Below are positions 768 to 10,305 of a DNA stretch of 64,000 bases, piece after piece. How positions within the stretch are numbered: the stretch's first letter is position 1; each line of letters begins with the position of its first letter. Made by a program: the position numbers and the translations under genes. The stretch comes from the human T2T-CHM13v2.0 reference genome, Homo sapiens, in assembly GCF_009914755.1 (NCBI RefSeq), contig NC_060926.1; one strand, written 5' to 3'. The notes beneath the pieces were generated by a model. The model made no database searches and was not told the origin of the DNA. It worked only from the letters and a program-made list of their open reading frames with translations.

Positions 768-1869
768 TTAGTTTATCTTGATTAGGATGGTCTCTGCTTC
801 TTTTTTAATAATATCACAACCTCTATAAAAGGCCATTTTTGAGAGAAATTAATAACATGCACCAGAAAGCCTAAAGGTTACAGCTCATTTTTACCATCTA
901 CAATAAGAAATATCACTTAATGGGTAGCATCTCCCAGGCTATGTTCTCATGAGATTTTTATAGCTAAGAATAAAATTCATGCCTATGGCAGACTTTTGTA
1001 ACCAATTTTAAGGAGTGACTTGCCACTTTTTCCATCCAAAATCCTGAGGGAAGAGAGGAAAAGGAGTAAGAGAATGGCAGGAATCAGAACTCACAGTCAT
1101 TCCTAAGAAAAAATTTGTGGCAATTCAAAAGTGATTTGTTTTCTTTCCCATGTCTAAGCCCCCATGCTCCTTCTGCACAGACTTTCGGATAATAATAATA
1201 TGCATGCAGATGGCATGTTCCAGGTTTCACAGCCCTTTCACAACCAGCCATTCATTTGAGATGATTGAAGCAAACCGTTTCAGGCTGAATGCAACTGTGA
1301 GCTGTTCAAAGGCAACACCTGGCAGCCCAGGATCACAGACGTGTTGTCATTGACATGACATGGGCTTAGAGAAGCTGAGGGTGAGCAAAGACCTGTGCCT
1401 TTGCATCACACACAGAGAGCTAGCACAGTGCCTGCTTATCAAGTTTGTACTTCATAAATGTTTGTTGAATGAATAAAGTATCACACCCAACTGCTTCCTT
1501 TTATAGATGAAAAACCCAGATTTCTTAGAGGTGGAAAATTTCATGAGGCAGCAGTGAAGGCATGAAGATTAGTCAAGGGAGCCAGGAAAATATAAGAGAA
1601 CTTCTCTCTGCCTGCTTCCCTCCTTTTTCTAGGTTTCTCTCATCCTTCTTTCTCTGTATGTCTCTGAATCTTTCTTATGCTCCTTTGGTTCCTTCTTTAC
1701 TAAAGTAACTGGTATTAATATGTAAATAAAATATGTTTATGTGTAGAATTAAGGCAAATCTCGGCATTTTAAAACTCTCTTTTTTATGGCTAAAGATGGA
1801 AATAAACTCAACATAATGCATATAGTTTACAGAAGTGAGAGAATTACTACTAAGAACCTCCATCTTTTG

Positions 1870-2400
1870 GTCATAGAACCAAAGATGCTCAGGGATTAAG
1901 GGATCTTTCAGTTGAGTCTATAAAACTGACTAACTGTAATTGTATCTTCTCTACAACATCCATTCCAGGCATTTGACTATTGCCTTTTTGAACATCTTAA
2001 AATAATGGGGAATTCAGCACTTGATGGGGGCAGCTATTCTTTGAACTACTCTGAGTTCTGAAAACTTTTACTTGTGTAGAGCTGAACTTTCATGCCCTAA
2101 ATCTTTCACACGTTGATTGTTCTTGATTGAACCCTTTGGAGACACACAGAATGAGTCTAGCCTGTCTTCCACCTGACAATCAAATATTTGAAGACAGATA
2201 TTTGAAGACAGCTTTCATGCCCACCCCCTTCCCCCAAGTCTTCTCCTTTCTGGAATAAACATCTCTGTTTCCTTTAGCAGATCCTCATATACCTTTACAG
2301 TGCGTATCTTCACCCCATTAAACATTCTTCTCTGAACATACTCTTATTTGCCTATATACAAGGCTGATAGTGGACAGATACATACTGGGATAGATATAAT
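1870..2400 (-). mobile_element. L3/CR1 LINE 3' remnant (further pieces at ~3600-3944 and ~10945-11300)
   Basis: Degenerate similarity to recalled L3 consensus (caaatatttgaagacagct...cttctcctttctggaataaac); pieces appear colinear around later insertions. Confidence 0.5.
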
Positions 2401-3022
2401 ATGAATTAAAATATGGAAATGGTTTTACTAAAGTTGATAAAAAGCTATAGTTCTAATTCTCTCACCAAGTGTCCATCACTTGGGACCCTCCTGACATCAT
2501 TAGGATCAATAACCAAGGGTTGTTCCTGGACCAATGTCCTTTTTCATTGGTAAATGCCCAAGTCATACCAGTTGCTAAATAAGTAGGACTCATTCCTAAA
2601 TATCCTTTTAAAGGTTTTGTCCAGAAACCAATAGAAAAAAAAACTTAAAAAAAAAACAACAACATCTACTCAGCACTGTTTATTTGCCCAGCACTGTGGC
2701 GTGTTTTTAACCTTATCCTTATTTAATTTTCACAGCAAGACTGTGAAATAAGAATCATTATTTCCATTCTATAAATAAGCAAACTAAGATTCTCAGAGGT
2801 TATGTATCTTGCCTAGTGTTTTCATAATTGTTAAATTCCAGAACAAGAATTCCAAAACAGATCTATGGTCAAATAAATTTGAAAAATAATACAGGTTCTT
2901 TATCCACTTGAAAAAGCATGGATGAAATTGAGCAATGAAAGTTTCTAAAAAGTCCTTCATTAAAGAAAGGTTTAACCCAGTGTATTTGAGATTGGGTCTT
3001 TTTCTTGTTTAATACCTATAAG

Positions 3023-3590
3023 TGTTACAGGACAGGGGTCCCAATCCAGACCCTAAGAGAGGGTTATTGGATTTCTCTCAAGAAAGAATTCAGGGCAAGT
3101 CCTCAAGGCAAAGTGAAAGCATGTTTATTAAGAAAGTAAAGGAATAAAAGAATGTCTGCTCCATAGACAGAGCAGCCCTGAGGGCTGCAGGTTGCCTATT
3201 TTTATGGTTATTTCTTGATGATATGCTCAACAAGGGGTGGATTATTCATGCCTCCCCTTTTTAGACCATATAGGGTAACTTCCTGATGTTGCCATGGCAT
3301 TTGTAAACTGTCATGGCTCTGGTGGGAGTGTAGTAGTGAGGGCGACCAGAGGTCATTCTCATAGACAGTTTAGTTTTGGTGGGTTTTGGCCAGCTCCTTT
3401 CCTGCAACCTGTTTTATCAGCAAGGTCTTTATAACCTGTATTTTGTGCTGACCTCCTATGACTTAGAAAGCCTGTGACTTAGAAAGCCTTAACCATCTAA
3501 CCGTCTGAGAATGCAGCTCAGTAGGTTTCAGCTTCATTTTACCCAGCTCCTATTTAAGATGCAGTTGCTCTGGTTCACACGCCTCTGATA
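3023..3590 (-). mobile_element. MER41A solo LTR (ERV1)
   Basis: tgttacaggacaggggtccc...gcctctgata matches the reverse complement of MER41; lacks the tandem TTCCNGGAA (GAS) block of MER41B; imperfect 4-bp TSD taag/tgag. Confidence 0.85.
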
Positions 3591-3976
3591 TGAGCACTTT
3601 GGCAAACTGATACTTTAATTATATTGGAAGCTGATCCCCACTCTTGACTCATGATAACCAAAATGATGACTCAGAGCTCCACATCATTTCCATGGATGTC
3701 ATTGTTAGGATCCGCTCCTCTTTCCTATCCATGAAAGATATGTTTTGAAACCAAAGCAGGAACTTAAAGTTATCCTTCATATGATACATTTGGTTAAATT
3801 CATGTCATTATCCAGTTTAATAGTATCACAAATTTGCCACCTTATATTGTCACTGTTCTTATTGGTTTAATTCATCTTCAACTGGCTGACCAAATTCTTT
3901 ACATCTTCACCTAGACAATCATAAATGTTAAACACAGAAGAATTGAGGACTACCAGTTTCAGGTCTAATATGTAAA

Positions 3977-4166
3977 TGTCATGCACGTCTGTGTGAAGAG
4001 AGTCCATCAACAGGCTTTGTGTGAGCAACGAGGCTGTTTATTCACTTGGGTGCAAATGGGCTGAGTCCGAGAAAGGAGTCAGCCCACTTGCACCCAAGTG
4101 AATAAACAGCCTTGTTGCTCACACAAAGTCTGTTGGTAGACTCTCTTCACACAGACAGACATGACA
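3977..4166. repeat. 88-bp inverted repeat (hairpin) of LTR R-U5 with 14-nt loop
   Basis: 3977-4064 is the reverse complement of 4079-4166 (80/88 identical by manual alignment). Confidence 0.95.
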
Positions 4167-4168
4167 TT

Positions 4169-4186
4169 TGGTGCCAAAACCCGGGA
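4169..4186 (+). other. tRNA-Phe primer-binding-site copy
   Basis: TGGTGCCAAAACCCGGGA vs complement of tRNA-Phe 3' 18 nt, TGGTGCCGAAACCCGGGA (17/18; the mismatch is at a CpG). Confidence 0.85.
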
Positions 4187-4500
4187 ATAGTCAGGGAAGC
4201 AGAAAATTTAGTTAAAATGTCTCGACCTAATAAGGGAGCTGGGCAGGTGGGGATAACTGAAAAGGAGTGCATAAAAGAATGTTGTCCAAGTTGGCACCAG
4301 AGTTGGGGAGTTTTAAGAGGCTTAGAAGCCTGGTCATCAATACCTACAACAGTTATGGAGGCAAGGGAAACAGGCCCTTGAAAAGAAGGTAATGTGGAGT
4401 GGGTAGCCTCCATATTGATTAAGAAGGAGGTGGACTTACCCTCCACTGTAAGAGTTACCCAAAGCATCTGTGATGGTCCAGGAGGCTTCTGAGGTGATCA
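4187..4500 (-). pseudogene. pro: HERV-H protease remnant
   Basis: ORF 4147..4467: LTVEGK..FLINMEATHSTL...PLLGRDIL; catalytic DTG degenerate. Confidence 0.85.
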
Positions 4501-4505
4501 GGCAG

Positions 4506-5800
4506 CGTCAGTCTTCAGCCGCTAAGCCGAGAAGATCTGGGAAGGAGTCAGTCAGAGAGCCTTGGGCCAGAGTTCCAGGGGCTCTGGGAGTGGCTGCCGG
4601 GTGAGCTGGTTCCAGTGGGTTCCCACACAGATGGGACATGGCTTAGGAGGAATCCCAGGCTGGGCATTCTTTAGCCCAGTGGCCAGATTTCCAGCATTTG
4701 AAGCAAGATCCTGGGGGAGGAGGTCCTGGAGGAATGCCTGGCCACTGTGGTTTAGATGTTTTGAAGTTCTTTTGTGCTGGAGATGTGGCTGGGGTTTCTC
4801 TCTCACACAGCAGAGGCAAGTAATTGTAACTCAGAAATACATTGCTGCTTGGCTGCCTCTTCTCTATTATTGTACACCTTGAAGGAGAGGTTAATTAAGT
4901 CCTATTGTGGGGCTTGAGGCCCGGAATATAATTTTTGGAGTTTTTTCTAACGTTGGGAGCAGATTGGGTAATAAAATGCATATTGAGAATAAGACGGCCT
5001 TCTGGCCCCTCTGGGTCTAGAGCGGTAAAGCATCTAAGGGTTCTTGCCAAACAGGCCATTAACTGGACTAGGTTTTTATATTTGATGAAAAAGAGACTAA
5101 ATGCTAACTGATTTGGGAGAGGCTGGATAAAGAAAAAGGAGCATTAACCTTGACTATGCCTTTAGCTCCAGCCACCTCTCTAAGAGGAAATTGTTGGGCA
5201 GGTTGGGGAGAGCTAGTCACAGAACGAAACTGTAAGCTGGAACAGGTGTGAGGAGGGGAAGTGATAGAAGGATTATAGGGTGAGGGAGCAGAGGCTGAGG
5301 AAGAATTGGGACCTTGCTCGGCCTGGTGAAGAGCAGCCTGGGGAGGCTGGGAGAGGTCAGATGGGTTTGTAGAAAAGGAGGATTCAAAGGACTCAGAGCT
5401 TGGGGTGGAAACTGAAGGAACAGACAGGAGAGAAGGAAGAAAGATTTGGGACAAGTTGCATTGGGAGCAGAGACTAGGGAGGGACCAATGTGTAAAAGAA
5501 TGCCCGGATGTCAAGCACCTCAGACCATTTGCCCATTTTTCGACAAAAATTATCTAGATCTTGTAGGATGGAGAAATCAAAAGTGCCATTTTCTGGTCAT
5601 TTAGAACCATTGTCAAGTTTGTATTGGGGCCAAGCAGTATTGCAGAAGAAAATAAGGCATTTAGGTTTTAGGTCAGGTGTGAGTTGAAGAGGTGTAAGTT
5701 CTTGAGAACACAGGGTAAGGGAGAAGAAGGAGGAATGGAGGGTGGAAGTTTGCCCATAGTTAAAAGGTGAGTTTAGAGAAAAGAGAGGATAGAGACACAG
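4506..5800 (-). pseudogene. gag: HERV-H gag remnant
   Basis: Fragments LIFFCNTAWPQYKLDNGSK, QQFPLREVAGAKGIVKVNAPFSLS, Zn knuckle PCPICVGTHW; frameshifted and deleted. Confidence 0.85.
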
Positions 5801-6186
5801 TGTGGGGGGAGGTGGTCTTGCCACCCAGGGAAGGTGGTACTTGCCACCAAGGTGAAGGATCAAGGCAGGCATCCCCACAGTGATTAAACACCAAGGGAAG
5901 ACTGTCTTCCCAAGTCCATGACTGTTGCCGGAGTTTTGAGTTCATGGATAAAACGTGTCTCCTCTGTCTCTACCAGAAAAGGAAAGGAACCAAAATTAAG
6001 GAAGGGAGAGATTGAAGGGTGGAGGGCTAACAAGACAGGCTGGAGAAGAGAACAAAAAGAGGCCACTTACCTGATTTAAAATTGGTGAGATGTTCCTTTG
6101 GCTGGTCTGAGGACCCAAGGTCATAGGTGATCTCCTCACGGAGTGAGGGTGAGGACCCGGGATGAGTCTCCTGAAGGAGTCCCCTG

Positions 6187-6205
6187 TCCCAGGTCTTTGG
6201 CACCA
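6187..6205 (-). other. Proviral PBS (Phe-like variant TGGTGCCAAAGACCTGGGA)
   Basis: Directly follows the U5 end (..cataaca tt) on the minus strand and precedes the HERV-H leader. Confidence 0.85.
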
Positions 6206-6207
6206 AA

Positions 6208-6612
6208 TGTTATGCATGTCCATGTGAAGAGACCACCAAACAGGCTTTGTGTGAGCAATAAACTTTTTAATCACCTGGGTGCAGGCAAGCTGAATCCAAA
6301 AAAAAGGAGTCAGCAAAGGGAGATAGGGGTGGGACAGTTTTATAGGATTTGGGTAGGTAGTGGAAAATTAGACTTAAAAGGGGTTGTTCTCTTGTGGACA
6401 GGGGCGGGGGTCACAAGGTGCTCAGTGGGGAGCTCCTGAGATTCACTGTCCAGGAGAAGGAATGTGACAAGGCCAATTGATCAGTTCAGGTGGGGCAGTA
6501 ACAAATCACAATGGTGGAATGTCATCAGTTAAGGCAGGAACTGACTATTTTCACTTCTTTTATAGTTCTTCAGTTGCTTCAGGCCACCTGGATGTATATG
6601 TGCAGGTCACAG
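6208..6612 (-). mobile_element. LTR7-family LTR (LTR7C-like), missing first ~35-40 nt of U3
   Basis: Reverse complement of 8184-8588, about 95% identical by eye; TATA box and ATTAAA present. Confidence 0.9.
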
Positions 6613-6638
6613 AGGCTTATTCCAGAAGGAAGGAAAGG

Positions 6639-7985
6639 CAACTTTCTCCTTATGTCAATTCTACCCCCTGCCCCCCAAATATTTGGACCCCTCACCACAC
6701 AAACAACTATCCCTGTTGCTGCTCCTTTATGCATCTCCCAACAATAGCCTACTGGAATCCCTTTAGGCAACCTTCCACCATCCAAATGTTCCTTTACTCT
6801 ATCTCCAGAACCCAGCCACACACATTACCAAACAGATGGGAGTATTCCAACTTTGCATTACTGATGAGCCCTCTATCATTACTGACAAACCAAAAAACAT
6901 TGGCAGTCACTATTGTTTGGAAAGACACTTATCCTCCATCTCCCTCCATCCTTGGCTATCCTCCCCCTGCTCATCTGAATCTCCTCCTATCCCCTCCTCT
7001 TGCTTGCTTATATGCAGCCCCATGAATAGCAGTGAAAGGTTACTCATAGACACTATGTGCTTTCTTATACACCATGGAAACCAAACCTCTCCCTCTATGA
7101 GTTGCACTATCCATCCCCATTACAACCTCTAATGGCTGCTGCCCTTGCTGGAGCTCTAGGATTTTGGGTGCAGGACTCCTCTTTCAGTACACCCTCTCAC
7201 CTTTTCACTTTACATTTCCAGTTCTGCCTGACACAAGGTCTCTTCTTTTATGTGGTTCTTCCACCTACATGCACCTACCTGCCAACTGGATGGGCACATG
7301 TACTCTAGTCTTCCTTACCCCCAAAATCCAGTTTGCAGATAGGAATGAACAACTGCCTGTCCCCCTCATGACACCAACACAACAAAAAGAGTCATCCCAG
7401 TTATCCCTTTACTTGTGGGTCTAGAACTTTTCTGCCTCCACTATTGCACTTGGAACTGGAATAGCAGGCATATCAACTTCTGTCACAACATTCTGCAGCC
7501 TCTATAATGACTTCTCTGCTAGCATTACAGATATATCACAAACTTTATCTGTCCTCCAAGCCCAGGTTGACTCTTTAGCTGCAGTTGTCCTCCAGAACTT
7601 CTGAGGCCTCAATTTACTCACTGCTGAAAAAGGAGGTCTCTGTATGTTTTTAAATGAAGAGTGTTGTTTTTACCTAAAACAATCTGGCCTGGTATATGAC
7701 AACATAAAAAAACTCAAGGATAGAGCCCCAAAACTCGCTAACCAACAAAATAATTATGCTAAACTCCCTTGGGCACTCTCTAATTGGATGTCTTGGGTCC
7801 TCCCAATTCTTAGTCCTTTAATACCTCTTTTTCTCCTTCTCTTATTTGGACCTTGTGTCTTCCGTTTAGTTTCTCAGTTCATACAAAACTGCATTCAGGC
7901 CATCACCAATCATTCTATATGACAAATGCTCCTTCTAACAACCCCACAACACCAACCTTTACCCCAAAATCTTTCTCCAGTTTAA
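6639..7985 (+). pseudogene. env: HERV-H env remnant (C-terminal SU + TM)
   Basis: IFGPLTTQTTIPVAAPLCIS, LPANWMGTCTLVFLTPKIQF, ISU-like LQNF*GLNLLTAEKGGLC, CX6CC (CMFLNEECC), TM LLLLFGPC; stops and frameshifts. Confidence 0.92.
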
Positions 7986-8146
7986 TCTCTCCCACTCTAG
8001 GTTCCCATGCTGCCCCTAATCCCACCTGAAGCAGCCCTGAGAAACATCACCCATTATCTCTCCATACCATCCCCCAAAATTTTCACCACCCCAACACTTC
8101 ACCACTACTTTGTTTTGTTTTTCTTATTAACATAAGAAGACAGGAA

Positions 8147-8588
8147 TTTCAGGCCTCTGAGCCCTAGCTAAGCCATCATATCCCCTGTGACCTGCACATA
8201 TATATCCAGATGGCCTGAAGCAACTGAAGAACCACAAAAGAAGTGAAAATAGCCAGTTCCTGCCTTAACTGATGACATTCCACCATTGTGATTTGTTCCT
8301 GCCCCACCCTAACTGATCAATTGACCTTGTCACATTCCTTCTCCTGGACAGTGAATCTCAGGAGCTCCCCACTGAGCACCTTGTGACCCCTGCCCCTGCC
8401 CACAAGAGAACAACCCCCTTTAAGTCTAATTTTCCACTACCTACCCACATCCCATAAAACTGCCCCACTCCTATCTCCCTTTGCTGACTCCTTTTTTGGA
8501 TTCAGACTGCCTGCACCCAGGTGATTAAAAAGCTTTATTGCTCACACAAAGCCTGTGTGGTGGTCTCTTCACATGGACGCACATAACA
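8147..8588 (+). mobile_element. 3' LTR7-family LTR (LTR7C-like), preceded by PPT
   Basis: PPT aagaagacaggaa 8134-8146; tttcaggcctctgagccc...cataaca. Confidence 0.92.
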
Positions 8589-10305
8589 GTAATCAGATGA
8601 GAAGTCACCACTTCCATTCCTACAATAACAACAACAAGCTAGATAAACAAAAACAATGACTTTTCTTGGACCCATCAAATAACTGAAGTTTCAGGGCAAA
8701 ACACTACCCCAAATTTGGAGAGACAGGTGTATCTAGAGACACAGGTGGGATCTGCTTACGTGGAAAAGAAGCTGCTGGGATCTACTTACCTGGAAAAGAA
8801 GGTGCTGGAGCCATAAATTGTTAGGAGCATTTACATGGTAATGTTGGCAAATTGCTGGAGGCTGTGTGTGGACTCATGTGAGAAAAAAAGCTCAGGGGGG
8901 CCACCGTTCTAAGGGTACCCTCACACATTTGTGAGCTTTACCTCCAAGAACATGGCCAAATTCTCATAGTAAGGATGTGAGAAAGATCCTTCCCTGGATT
9001 TGGCAGGAAAAGAGGATGAAATCCCCTTGGAGAGTTCTCCATAACAAAGGCCTACTTTGCAGGGTGAAAGACTTTCCCAGAGCCTTATTCCAGAAGGAAG
9101 GGAGGAAAGGCATTCCTCTCTCTCCCCTGTCTTCTCTAGCTTTCTAGTCCCCACTAAGGGAAAAATTTAAAAGCTATGCCACTGGAGAAACACTTGTGAA
9201 GCTGACAGTTCAGAAACATGCCCCCAACCCCCACAAAAGATGGAGTTTTAACAAGATTATGGAATGCTTCTACCTCCCAGAACCTTCTCACCTCAGCAAT
9301 AGGGCTCCCGTATGACAGTGGATTACAGTTGAAAAATCTGCAAAACAGAGATTCTGAGAAGTACTTAGGGAAGCCTAAAGTCAAGGTGAGAGACAAAATT
9401 AAGGAAGAATCTGAAGCTTCTGACATCCACACCAATAGCAAACAGTAAACATAGCCCAGCACTTAGCCAGATTAACATAAATCCTCACAATAAAGGCCTA
9501 CTTGCCTATTTGTCTATTTTCCTCTCTGGTTTGAACAAAAAATTACAAAGCAGGCCAAGAAAAAACAAACACACACAGTCTAAGGAAACAAAGCAATCAC
9601 GAGAATCAGGCTCAGCTATGACACAGATGATGATATGATCAGACATGGAATTTACAATATCATAACTATAATTAATACGTTAAGGGCTTTAATAGAAAAA
9701 GTAGACAACATGAAAGAAGAGATGAGTAAAGTAAGCAGCGAGATGGAAACTCTAAGAATCAAAACAGATGATCAAAATAAAAAACAAAGACAGCTGAGAA
9801 AAAAACTATCAGTGAGATTGAAGATCATCAATAGCAAACTGAAATGCAAAGAGAAAAAAAGAATTTTTTAAAAATCACATATCCGCTAAGAACTGTAAAC
9901 AATTTTAAAAGCTATAACATACATGTAATTGGAATATCAGAAGGAAAAAATTAAAGAGAACAGAGAAAAAGAAATAGCTGAAGTAGTAATGGTTAAAAAC
10001 TTTCCAAAATTAATGACAGTCACCACATCACAAATTCAGGAATATCAGAGAATATCAAGCCAAATAAATACCAAAAACAAAACTAACTGCAGAAAACCAG
10101 ACACGAAGAAAATATTATGAAAGAAGCTAGAGGGGGAGAAAACTTTGCCTTAGATGAATGAAAATAACAATTATAATAGACTTCTCATCAGAAACTATAT
10201 AAACAAAAGGACAGTAGCATAAAATATTTAAAGTCTTGAAAGCAAAAAAACCCAACAAGCTTGAATTCTATATCCAGTCAAATTGTCCTTCCAAAGTGAA
10301 GGAGA

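What the first reader, a model, noticed from the sequence alone, without database searches (positions are those of the whole stretch)
3972..8593. Provirus integrated with U5 ends at both termini inside one 5-bp TSD
Seen: the left terminus is reverse-complement U5 (TGTCATG...) and the right is sense U5 (...CATAACA). Both lack the 2-nt spacer beyond CA and are flanked by GTAAA/GTAAT. The flanks rejoin into a continuous old-L1 5' end, so no flanking DNA appears lost. Inside, LTR-gag-pro points left, env-LTR points right, and pol is absent. Known: normal proviruses have one U3 and one U5 end; integrase trims 2 nt after CA; HERV-H makes ~5-bp TSDs. Inference: integrase used two U5 attachment ends of an aberrant reverse transcript, so the inversion largely predates integration.
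Basis: partly seen in the sequence, partly recalled or inferred. Interest (0 to 1): 0.8.

Follow-up and report, generated by a model that had tools for sequence, protein, structure and literature searches.

The report
Rearranged HERV-H provirus with two U5 ends
This is a dead, scrambled HERV-H provirus whose left end is a fold-back copy of the first piece of DNA a retrovirus makes, so both outer ends are U5 ends, which suggests that a faulty reverse transcript was still inserted by the viral integrase.

Summary
Window 3972-8593 holds a 4.6-kb composite HERV-H element. Both outer ends are U5 termini (TG...CA), abutting GTAAA/GTAAT.

It is a 95-nt R-U5 palindrome centred on the natural hairpin at the start of R. 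It is followed by the TT spacer and an 18-nt primer-binding site (PBS). That is the anatomy of a fold-back-primed minus-strand strong-stop DNA.

The PBS end joins inverted pro through 7 nt of microhomology. Then follow inverted gag, the leader and a 5' LTR lacking about 35 nt of U3. After about 21 nt of filler come env and the 3' LTR. About 3.7 kb (pol and the 5' part of env) is missing.

The palindrome's R-U5 is only about 80% like that of the two LTRs, which are 94% alike. So two HERV-H lineages contributed.

Two more such palindromes exist. One on chr1 is a clean U5/U5 provirus with a perfect 5-bp duplication.

I favour pre-integration assembly followed by U5/U5 integration (0.6). This is unproven: no empty site could be examined, the "continuous L1" claim was not confirmed, and loss of the left spacer is ambiguous.

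The parts
3972..3976 (.). Left copy of the putative 5-bp target-site duplication (GTAAA).
   Evidence: It matches GTAAT at 8589-8593 in 4 of 5 positions, with a chance of about 0.018. Its last AA(A) could instead be the retained complement of the spacer.
3977..4083 (-). Outer arm: the reverse complement of U5 and R up to and including the whole natural R hairpin. The stem is 4060-4068 / 4075-4083 and the loop 4069-4074. This is the sequence expected of a complete minus-strand strong-stop DNA.
   Evidence: arms 3974-4068 / 4075-4169, 91% complementary. In one search, ordinary LTR7 copies match query 1-72 (window 4012-4083) on one strand, loop included; folded as DNA it ends in a paired 3'-terminal hairpin.
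4075..4168 (+). Inner arm: sense R-U5 ending in CATGACA (4160-4166), followed by the TT spacer (4167-4168).
   Evidence: In one search, ordinary LTRs match from query 64 (window 4075) on the other strand; 86 of 95 positions are identical to the outer arm.
4169..4186 (+). 18-nt primer-binding site (PBS1). Likeness to normal copies stops exactly after nt 18.
   Evidence: an alignment with the window's own 5' LTR-PBS junction and 14 junctions from other loci. Normal copies continue into a conserved leader, whereas this one continues into inverted pro.
4180..4186 (.). Junction J2: 7 nt (CCCGGGA) shared by the 3' end of PBS1 and the reverse complement of the end of pro. The match is 6 of 7 to the three intact copies.
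   Evidence: alignment. Searches give the extent of likeness on each side.
4180..6186 (-). Inverted internal half: the leader, gag (a weak p30 hit, NC zinc knuckle) and pro up to its end. It is colinear with L062 positions 3026 down to the PBS.
   Evidence: 79% over 2264 columns. (RVP 3.7e-08; zf-CCHC 2.1e-05; Gag_p30 0.0016, below the cut-off). In one search the best other copy is 86% identical.
6187..6207 (-). PBS2 (about 6187-6205) and the AA complement of the spacer (6206-6207) of the inverted half.
   Evidence: This is a normal U5-TT-PBS junction, seen in reverse complement.
6208..6615 (-). Inverted 5' LTR (U5, R, U3) lacking about 35 nt at the start of U3.
   Evidence: 94% to the right LTR; the next best copy in the genome is 91%. 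(likeness ends at about 6612-6615). (387 of 412 aligned bases identical).
6616..6636 (.). Junction J3: about 21 nt of filler with no detectable source.
   Evidence: alignments. In one search, short-word BLAST against the element and L062 gave only chance words of 7-11 nt.
6637..8146 (+). The 3' 1.5 kb of env (part of SU, and TM), plus the polypurine tract at 8134-8146.
   Evidence: 89% to L062 6738-8389. (TLV_coat 1.5e-26 and 6e-08). In one search the best other copies are 91% identical.
8147..8588 (+). Complete 3' LTR ending in CATAACA. Its first bases read TTTCAGG where other copies read TGTCAGG.
8589..8593 (.). Right copy of the putative 5-bp target-site duplication (GTAAT).

Best explanation
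The 4.6-kb insert is one defective HERV-H DNA that was put together before integration and then inserted by the viral integrase using two U5 ends.

Step 1 (anatomy shown, process inferred). A minus-strand strong-stop DNA copied from one packaged HERV-H RNA did not make the first strand transfer. Its 3' end is the complement of the hairpin at the very start of R. That end folded back (or paired with the second strong-stop DNA of the particle) and was extended back through R and U5 and 18 nt into the tRNA primer. The result is outer arm, loop, inner arm, TT and PBS (3977-4186).

Step 2 (junction shown, enzyme inferred). The free 3' end of that PBS paired through CCCGGGA with a near-identical word at the end of pro in plus-sense DNA or RNA of a second HERV-H genome of another LTR7 variant. 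It was joined or extended there. This placed pro, gag, the leader and the 5' LTR of that genome in inverted order.

Step 3 (junction shown, mechanism open). The U3 side of that LTR, about 35 nt short, was joined through about 21 nt of filler to env 1.5 kb upstream of the 3' LTR of the same genome. About 3.7 kb (pol and the 5' part of env) was lost.

Step 4 (inferred). Once double-stranded, the molecule carried a U5 attachment end at each terminus. Integrase trimmed both ends to CA and inserted them in concert, duplicating 5 bp of target (GTAA[T/A]).

The element has no working gene and no shown function. Its value is as a fossil of the process.
For: 1. Three boundaries of the left 213 nt coincide with strong-stop DNA landmarks.
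- The outer end is the U5 terminus.
- The palindrome centre is the natural 9-bp-stem hairpin at the start of R. The loop is in the orientation of the outer arm. The strand folds into a paired 3'-terminal hairpin (-19.3 kcal/mol, z -3.0).
- Likeness to normal copies ends exactly at PBS nt 18. The 7-nt microhomology lies at that 3' end.

2. Both outer ends are exact TG/CA termini next to a 4/5 five-bp repeat, with chance about 0.018. The family makes 5-bp duplications in 5 of 5 solo LTRs examined.

3. Neither half has a terminus or duplication of its own. The inverted LTR stops about 35 nt short of its U3 start, and the env half begins inside env.

4. The two full LTRs are each other's closest relatives: 94% against at most 91% for the other 38 scored places. 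They therefore come from one reverse-transcription event.

5. The divergence of the palindrome arms (9/95) does not differ significantly from that of the LTR pair (25/412; Fisher p 0.25). This is compatible with one date of formation.

6. Precedents in the same genome. The same three loci were found by an exact pattern (2 loci, reversed control 0) and by three BLAST queries.
- chr1 (C1:53315036-53317415) has an inverted R-U5, the hairpin, R-U5-TT-PBS-leader-gag-pro, the PPT and a full 3' LTR. It has U5 ends at both termini and a perfect GTGAT/GTGAT duplication. The base outside its left TG is T, so that end was trimmed.
- chr3 (C3:90147763-90149650) has the same palindrome plus an inverted LTR, inside a perfect TTCTC duplication.

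7. [quoted passage not shown]

8. Co-packaging of HERVH lineages and recombination between them are described in PMC8912925 (passages).
Against: 1. The palindrome's R-U5 is only 79-81% identical to the R-U5 of both LTRs. The two types are separate variants genome-wide. One-step formation therefore needs a particle carrying two different HERV-H RNAs, or cDNA from another particle.

2. The duplication is imperfect (4/5). The mismatch is the base next to the left terminus. The AA(A) there equals an untrimmed spacer, so an end not processed by integrase cannot be excluded.

3. J3 carries about 21 nt of untraceable filler. That is more typical of host end joining than of template switching, and it could in principle be younger than the integration.

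4. Three separate aberrant joins in one molecule is a lot.

5. The continuity of the two flanks in an empty site was not tested.

6. The start of R was placed at the hairpin only by the distance from the TATA-like box (about 28-31 nt) and by the palindromes themselves. No mapped start site was seen, because the paper I sought was not held.

7. In the chr1 locus the loop belongs to the inner arm, so the priming geometry is not identical in all three loci.
Confidence: 0.6

Rival explanations
1. Normal integration followed by host rearrangement. An ordinary plus-oriented provirus of the D/F type sat inside the GTAA[T/A] duplication. Later its 5' half was inverted, pol was lost, and a stray HERV-H strong-stop hairpin cDNA was captured at the left breakpoint during double-strand-break repair.
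For: - The 7-nt microhomology at J2 and the roughly 21-nt filler at J3 look like microhomology-mediated end joining.
- The first five bases of U3 and of the inverted U5 end are the same (TGTCA), so a join at the very edge could hide.
- This reading explains without a mixed particle why the palindrome is a different LTR7 variant.
Against: - It needs the remaining 35 nt of U3 to be removed exactly to the edge of the duplication, and the captured cDNA to end exactly at its own U5 terminus there.
- The chr1 and chr3 loci show the same palindrome ending exactly at a perfect duplication. Three independent host accidents with that precision are unlikely.
- Capture of retroviral cDNA at breaks in the primate germline is recalled from yeast and cell-culture work, not shown here.
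Confidence: 0.15
2. Insertion without integrase. The aberrant composite cDNA formed as in the best explanation but was ligated into a chromosomal break by host end joining. The 'duplication' is then chance or 2-3 nt of microhomology (GT or GTA), and the left AA(A) is the untrimmed spacer.
For: - The palindrome pairs three bases beyond CA on the left (AAA 3974-3976 with TTT 4167-4169). That is what an untrimmed strong-stop 5' end would give.
- The duplication is only 4/5.
Against: - The right end is trimmed exactly to CA.
- Two of the three A's are also present in the right-hand copy GTAAT, so they are most simply target bases.
- End joining usually nibbles ends, yet both are exact here.
- The 4/5 five-bp repeat sits in the register the family uses.
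- The chr1 U5/U5 element was demonstrably trimmed and has a perfect 5-bp duplication.
Confidence: 0.13
3. Two or more independent HERV-H insertions, placed close together or nested in opposite orientations, were later fused by deletions.
For: Two LTR7 variants are present. The halves point in opposite directions.
Against: - No half has its own pair of termini or its own duplication.
- The two full LTRs are each other's best match in the genome (94% against at most 91%), as expected of one provirus.
- Independent insertions do not explain a palindrome bounded by the U5 end and PBS nt 18.
- The outer 4/5 repeat would be a coincidence (0.018).
Confidence: 0.07

Closest known systems
Self-primed (fold-back) minus-strand strong-stop DNA, described for HIV-1 in vitro (Guo et al. 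1997; Driscoll and Hughes 2000; as reviewed in PMC6088434, passages read)
   Same: A hairpin at the 3' end of the strong-stop DNA (the complement of the start of R) primes copying of the strand itself. This gives an inverted R-U5 repeat. The outer boundary lies at the tRNA junction.
   Different: - Here it is seen as a germline fossil of a gammaretrovirus-like ERV, not as a test-tube product.
- The hairpin is a 9-bp stem rather than TAR.
- The review calls such products dead ends and says they are not detected in endogenous reactions. Here the product carries a complete 18-nt PBS copy, was joined to further viral DNA and reached the chromosome.
Ordinary HERV-H (LTR7 / HERVH-int) provirus
   Same: - LTRs, leader, gag, pro and env are 79-94% identical to many genomic copies.
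- The 5-bp duplication is the same.
- The LTR start and R motifs are the same as in the LTR7 reporter sequences printed in PMC8912925.
   Different: - It has four R-U5 copies instead of two.
- Both termini are U5, with no U3 terminus.
- The 5' half is inverted and pol is missing.
- The parts come from two LTR7 variants.
Autointegration (intramolecular integration) products of retroviral DNA, which give circles with an inverted segment and inverted LTRs. This is recalled knowledge; only the reference entry for Lee and Coffin 1990 was seen.
   Same: The LTRs are in inverted orientation, and the 5' half is inverted relative to env and the 3' LTR.
   Different: Autointegration joins a trimmed CA end to an internal target with an internal 5-bp duplication. 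Here neither internal junction is at an LTR terminus: J2 is at PBS nt 18 and J3 is 35 nt inside U3. No internal duplication is present.
Concerted integration of donor DNA carrying two U5 ends, the usual substrate of in vitro intasome work (recalled, no paper read here)
   Same: Two U5 ends are trimmed to CA and joined across a staggered cut.
   Different: That is an engineered substrate. Here, and more cleanly at the chr1 locus, it would be a natural product in a germline.
Inverted or scrambled defective proviruses in HIV-1 reservoirs (recalled, no paper read here)
   Same: Internal inversions and large deletions arise in a single replication round.
   Different: As I recall, those are recovered with primers in normal LTRs, so U5/U5 termini and strong-stop palindromes would not be seen.

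Membership tests
HERV-H (LTR7 / HERVH-int) | LTR homologous to the LTR7 family | tested here: met
   2799 first-look candidates, of which 40 were scored at 88-94% (self apart); the LTR start motif and the R hairpin and poly(A) region occur in the LTR7 sequences printed in PMC8912925.
HERV-H (LTR7 / HERVH-int) | Gammaretrovirus-like gag-pro and env, colinear with other copies | tested here: met
   (colinear with L062, L063 and L064). (RVP, zf-CCHC, TLV_coat; Gag_p30 only below the cut-off).
HERV-H (LTR7 / HERVH-int) | 5-bp target-site duplication abutting TG...CA | tested here: met
   5 of 5 solo LTRs (2 perfect, 3 at 4/5). At this locus the match is 4/5.
HERV-H (LTR7 / HERVH-int) | One U3 terminus and one U5 terminus (normal provirus) | tested here: not met
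   both termini are U5. It is a member by sequence but not a normal provirus.
Self- or mutually primed minus-strand strong-stop DNA | Inverted repeat made only of R-U5, centred on a hairpin at the start of R | tested here: met
   That R starts at the hairpin is inferred from the TATA distance, not from a mapped start site.
Self- or mutually primed minus-strand strong-stop DNA | Outer boundary at the U5/tRNA junction and inner boundary after 18 nt of PBS | tested here: met
Self- or mutually primed minus-strand strong-stop DNA | Made by reverse transcriptase inside a particle | not testable with these tools
   Inference only. It is supported by recurrence at three loci.
Integrase-mediated concerted integration | Both ends trimmed to CA, 2 nt lost | tested here: inconclusive
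   The right end is trimmed. The left is ambiguous, because AA outside TG equals the spacer complement.
Integrase-mediated concerted integration | Single duplication of family-specific length, and an intact empty site | tested here: inconclusive
   The 4/5 five-bp repeat is present. The empty site could not be examined, because no primate genomes are on hand and the left flank has no paralogue.
Autointegration product | Internal junction formed by a trimmed LTR end, with an internal 5-bp duplication | tested here: not met
   J2 lies at PBS nt 18 and J3 lies about 35 nt inside U3 with filler.

The most novel reading that the evidence does not exclude
[quoted passage not shown] The product keeps a 3' PBS end that can stand in for plus-strand strong-stop DNA. 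It yields linear DNA whose left end is an inverted U5, which integrase inserts as a U5/U5 molecule. The chr2 element would then be a three-junction product of a particle carrying two different HERV-H RNAs. Together with the chr1 and chr3 loci it would define a small, recognisable class of 'strong-stop palindrome' proviruses that could be searched for in any ERV family.
Probability: 0.5. Interest if true: 0.65.

Novelty: new variant of a known kind. Interest (0 to 1): 0.55.

Why it matters
Errors of reverse transcription are mostly known from test tubes and single-cycle vector work. This locus and its two relatives record, base by base, what a natural gammaretrovirus-like virus did wrong in a primate germline 15-30 million years ago.

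If the reading holds, it shows three things:
- A strong-stop DNA primed on itself can be rescued.
- The 18-nt PBS copy is a reactive end that can land elsewhere by microhomology.
- Integrase accepts two U5 ends in vivo.

It also gives annotators a simple signature: two opposed R-U5 pieces meeting at the start of R and ending at a duplication. That signature explains 'odd' LTR fragments next to proviruses. The element itself has no intact gene, and no function is shown for it.

Tried and rejected
1. Rejoining the flanks through paralogues of the alleged old L1.
- The right flank has paralogues at 64-79% identity (40 of 262 candidates scored).
- In 5 of 9 fetched loci the alignment starts at window 8600-8601. 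None of the 9 aligns to the left flank.
- The stretches upstream of 8 paralogues share nothing with each other except one unrelated inverted pair, and nothing with the window.
- The left flank is single-copy. The first left-flank search was swamped by an abundant repeat at 3402-3598.
- So this test gives no answer.

2. Naming the right-flank repeat. Pfam on the ORF at 9584-9871 gave only sub-threshold coiled-coil hits. A call with three frames failed because of stop codons.

3. Source of the J3 filler. Only chance words of 7-11 nt were found.

4. Deciding which LTR variant the internal halves belong to. The nearest relatives of gag-pro and of env carry a mixture of R-U5 types, so there is no verdict.

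5. Host fold-back at the hairpin after integration. I rejected this because at 3 of 3 loci the outer arm stops exactly at the U5 end next to the duplication.

6. Autointegration. I rejected this because the junctions are not at LTR ends.

7. A mapped LTR7 start site. PMC3580499 gave none, and the 1996 promoter paper is not held.

9. Prior descriptions. Full-text searches found no U5/U5 provirus or R-U5 palindrome provirus. The library lacks most subscription journals, where the older retrovirology literature sits, so this is weak evidence of novelty.

Full report
**What is there**

The window is human chr2, as given in the hub annotation and confirmed. Reading 3700-8900 and searching for repeats gives the following order on the plus strand:

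| Coordinates | Feature |
|---|---|
| 3972-3976 | GTAAA |
| 3977-4068 | Reverse complement of U5 and R, starting TGTCATG |
| 4069-4074 | 6-nt loop |
| 4075-4166 | Sense R-U5, ending CATGACA |
| 4167-4168 | TT spacer |
| 4169-4186 | 18-nt primer-binding site (PBS1) |
| 4180 to about 6186 | Reverse complement of pro, gag and the leader |
| about 6187-6205 | Reverse complement of a second PBS (PBS2) |
| 6206-6207 | AA (complement of the spacer) |
| 6208 to about 6615 | Inverted LTR |
| about 6616-6636 | Filler |
| 6637-8133 | env |
| 8134-8146 | Polypurine tract |
| 8147-8588 | Complete sense LTR, ending CATAACA |
| 8589-8593 | GTAAT |

Pfam confirms the genes and their strands:
- RVP at 4150-4497 on the minus strand.
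- zf-CCHC at 4646-4894 on the minus strand.
- A Gag_p30 hit below the cut-off at 4898-5143 on the minus strand.
- TLV_coat at 7425-7922 on the plus strand, with a weak hit at 7101-7424.

Against an intact copy (L062), the window holds positions 835-3026 inverted and 6738-8389 direct. About 3.7 kb (pol and the 5' part of env) is missing.

**Family**

All parts have hundreds to thousands of relatives in the same genome:
- LTR: 2799 first-look candidates.
- gag-pro: 1197 candidates.
- env: 1361 candidates.

Forty candidates were scored in each search. The LTR start and the R region match the LTR7 sequences printed in the methods of PMC8912925. I therefore call the element HERV-H on that basis.

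Sixteen LTR-bearing loci were examined. Five of them are solo LTRs with no internal sequence beside them; the other 11 were set aside for that reason. All 5 have a 5-bp duplication abutting TG...CA, 2 perfect and 3 at 4/5.

**The left end is a strong-stop palindrome**

The arms 3974-4068 and 4075-4169 are 91% complementary, with 86 of 95 positions identical.

I searched the genome with the centre of the palindrome (40 of 1521 candidates scored). Ordinary LTR7 copies match positions 1-72 on one strand and 64-120 on the other. The two orientations therefore overlap only in a 9-nt stem (4075-4083). The loop belongs to the outer, inverted arm.

That stem and loop is a natural hairpin of the LTR. 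It begins 28-31 nt after the TATA-like box of the right LTR. I take this as the start of R, by the usual TATA-to-start distance. This is an inference, and I saw no mapped start site. Folded as DNA, 3972-4083 ends in a paired 3'-terminal hairpin.

I aligned the inner arm with the window's own 5' LTR-PBS junction and with 14 U5-PBS junctions from other loci. It follows them through the TT spacer and exactly 18 nt of PBS, then departs. So the 213-nt block has three boundaries:
- the U5/tRNA junction;
- the start of R;
- the 18th base of the tRNA copy.

These are the boundaries of a minus-strand strong-stop DNA that was extended on itself or on a second such molecule. Self-priming of this kind is established in vitro for HIV-1. 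There it is described as a dead end that is not detected in endogenous reactions (PMC6088434, passages; also PMC4668388, passages).

**Internal junctions**

*J2.* In provirus sense, the end of pro in three intact copies matches the window up to a 7-nt word. That word is at the same time the reverse complement of the last 7 nt of PBS1; it matches the three copies in 6 of 7 positions. Beyond it the window continues as PBS and U5 while the copies continue into pol. A 3' end finishing at PBS nt 18 thus paired by microhomology with plus-sense pro. Either reverse transcriptase (template switch) or host microhomology-mediated joining could have done this. I cannot tell which.

*J3.* Likeness to the LTR stops at about 6612-6615, some 35 nt short of the U3 start. 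Likeness to env starts at about 6637. The roughly 21 nt between has no detectable source.

**Two lineages**

- The two full LTRs are 94% identical (387 of 412 aligned bases). Each is the other's best match in the genome. The next best of the scored places is 91%.
- The palindrome arms are 79-81% identical to the R-U5 of either LTR.
- The 6 non-self loci cut out in the LTR search (L003-L008) match the right LTR's R-U5 at 90-96% and the inner arm at 79-83%. Most loci cut out in the inner-arm search show the reverse.

So the palindrome comes from another HERV-H variant than the rest. The nearest relatives of gag-pro and of env carry mixed R-U5 types, which gives no further resolution. PMC8912925 (passages) describes co-packaging of HERVH lineages and recombination between them. 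A mixed particle is therefore not far-fetched, but it is an added assumption.

**Termini and flanks**

- GTAAA and GTAAT match in 4 of 5 positions, in the register the family uses. The chance of at least 4/5 at the local composition is 0.018.
- The right end is trimmed to CA.
- On the left, the AA outside TG is also what an untrimmed end would carry, and the palindrome pairs three bases there. Two of those A's recur in the right copy, so target origin is the simpler reading.
The left flank is single-copy. The right-flank repeat starts, in its paralogues, about 10 nt after the insert and has nothing in common with the left flank.
- No primate genome is on hand, so the empty site is untested.

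**Relatives of the structure**

An exact two-motif pattern found one more locus, and the reversed control found none. Three BLAST searches with the palindrome centres of three LTR7 variants were run, each scoring 40 candidates, out of 1521, 2097 and 1801. All returned the same three loci spanning the centre. The count of 3 is a lower bound.

*chr1, C1:53315036-53317415.* The order is: flank ...GTGAT; inverted U5-R; the hairpin; R-U5-TT-PBS-leader-gag-pro; a jump to the polypurine tract; a full LTR ending CA; then GTGAT.
- This is a provirus with U5 ends at both termini and a perfect 5-bp duplication.
- The base outside its left TG is T, so that end was trimmed.
- It is what one expects if the primed strong-stop DNA, with its 3' PBS, replaces plus-strand strong-stop DNA in the second strand transfer.

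*chr3, C3:90147763-90149650.* This locus has the palindrome, the PBS, the leader and gag. An inverted full LTR follows, with its U5 end joined to gag. The whole lies inside a perfect TTCTC duplication.

In chr2 and chr3 the loop goes with the outer arm. In chr1 it goes with the inner arm. The priming geometry therefore differs, for instance priming on the particle's second strong-stop DNA.

At all three loci the outer arm ends exactly at the U5 terminus beside the duplication. This argues against a host fold-back after integration.

**Age**

- The LTR pair differs by K2P 0.064 and the palindrome arms by 0.103. The raw counts do not differ significantly (Fisher p 0.25).
- With rates of 1.0-2.2e-9 per site per year (recalled range), the LTR pair gives roughly 14-32 million years.

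**Verdict**

I put 0.6 on assembly before integration followed by U5/U5 integration. The remainder is spread as follows:
- host rearrangement with cDNA capture: 0.15;
- integrase-independent insertion: 0.13;
- several insertions fused by deletions: 0.07.

I found no earlier description, but the older retrovirology literature is largely outside the searched library. I class it as a new variant of a known kind (a defective provirus). Its interest is moderate: the biochemistry of two U5 ends is unsurprising, but natural fossils of primed strong-stop DNA are, as far as I could see, not in print.

Noticed in passing
L069 and L071 (G000:C1:53315036-53317415): A 2.4-kb HERV-H element whose 5' LTR is replaced by an R-U5 palindrome. 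Both termini are U5 ends and the duplication is a perfect GTGAT/GTGAT. There is an internal jump from pro straight to the polypurine tract.
   Followed up: yes
L066-L068 (G000:C3:90147763-90149650): A 1.9-kb HERV-H element with a full LTR, then inverted gag, leader, PBS, U5 and R, then sense R-U5, inside a perfect TTCTC duplication. The U5 end of the LTR is joined directly to inverted gag. The locus lies near the chr3 centromere.
   Followed up: partly
window 4169-4186 and about 6187-6205; L066 1430-1450: The PBS differs among HERV-H copies. The window and 13 other copies share one type, with or without one extra G. The chr3 locus has a clearly different type. By recall these look like the Phe-like and His types; they were not tested against tRNA sequences.
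   Followed up: partly
window 3402-3598: An abundant interspersed repeat of about 175-195 bp (2142 first-look candidates, 84-88% identity). It lies 380 nt left of the insert and was not named.
   Followed up: no
window 8600-9160 and 9584-9871: An old repeat starts about 10 nt right of the insert, with paralogues at 64-79% identity. An open frame 1 kb further on gives only sub-threshold coiled-coil hits. The RefSeq enhancer 8650-9502 lies inside this repeat, not in the provirus.
   Followed up: partly
window 4147-4497, minus strand: The 116-aa open frame listed for pro runs on across junction J2 into the inverted PBS and U5. Its last residues are a by-product of the junction, not protease sequence.
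   Followed up: no
window 8147-8153: The right LTR begins TTTCAGG where other copies begin TGTCAGG. This is a point difference in the terminal inverted repeat of U3, which here is internal to nothing and irrelevant to the U5/U5 reading.
   Followed up: no
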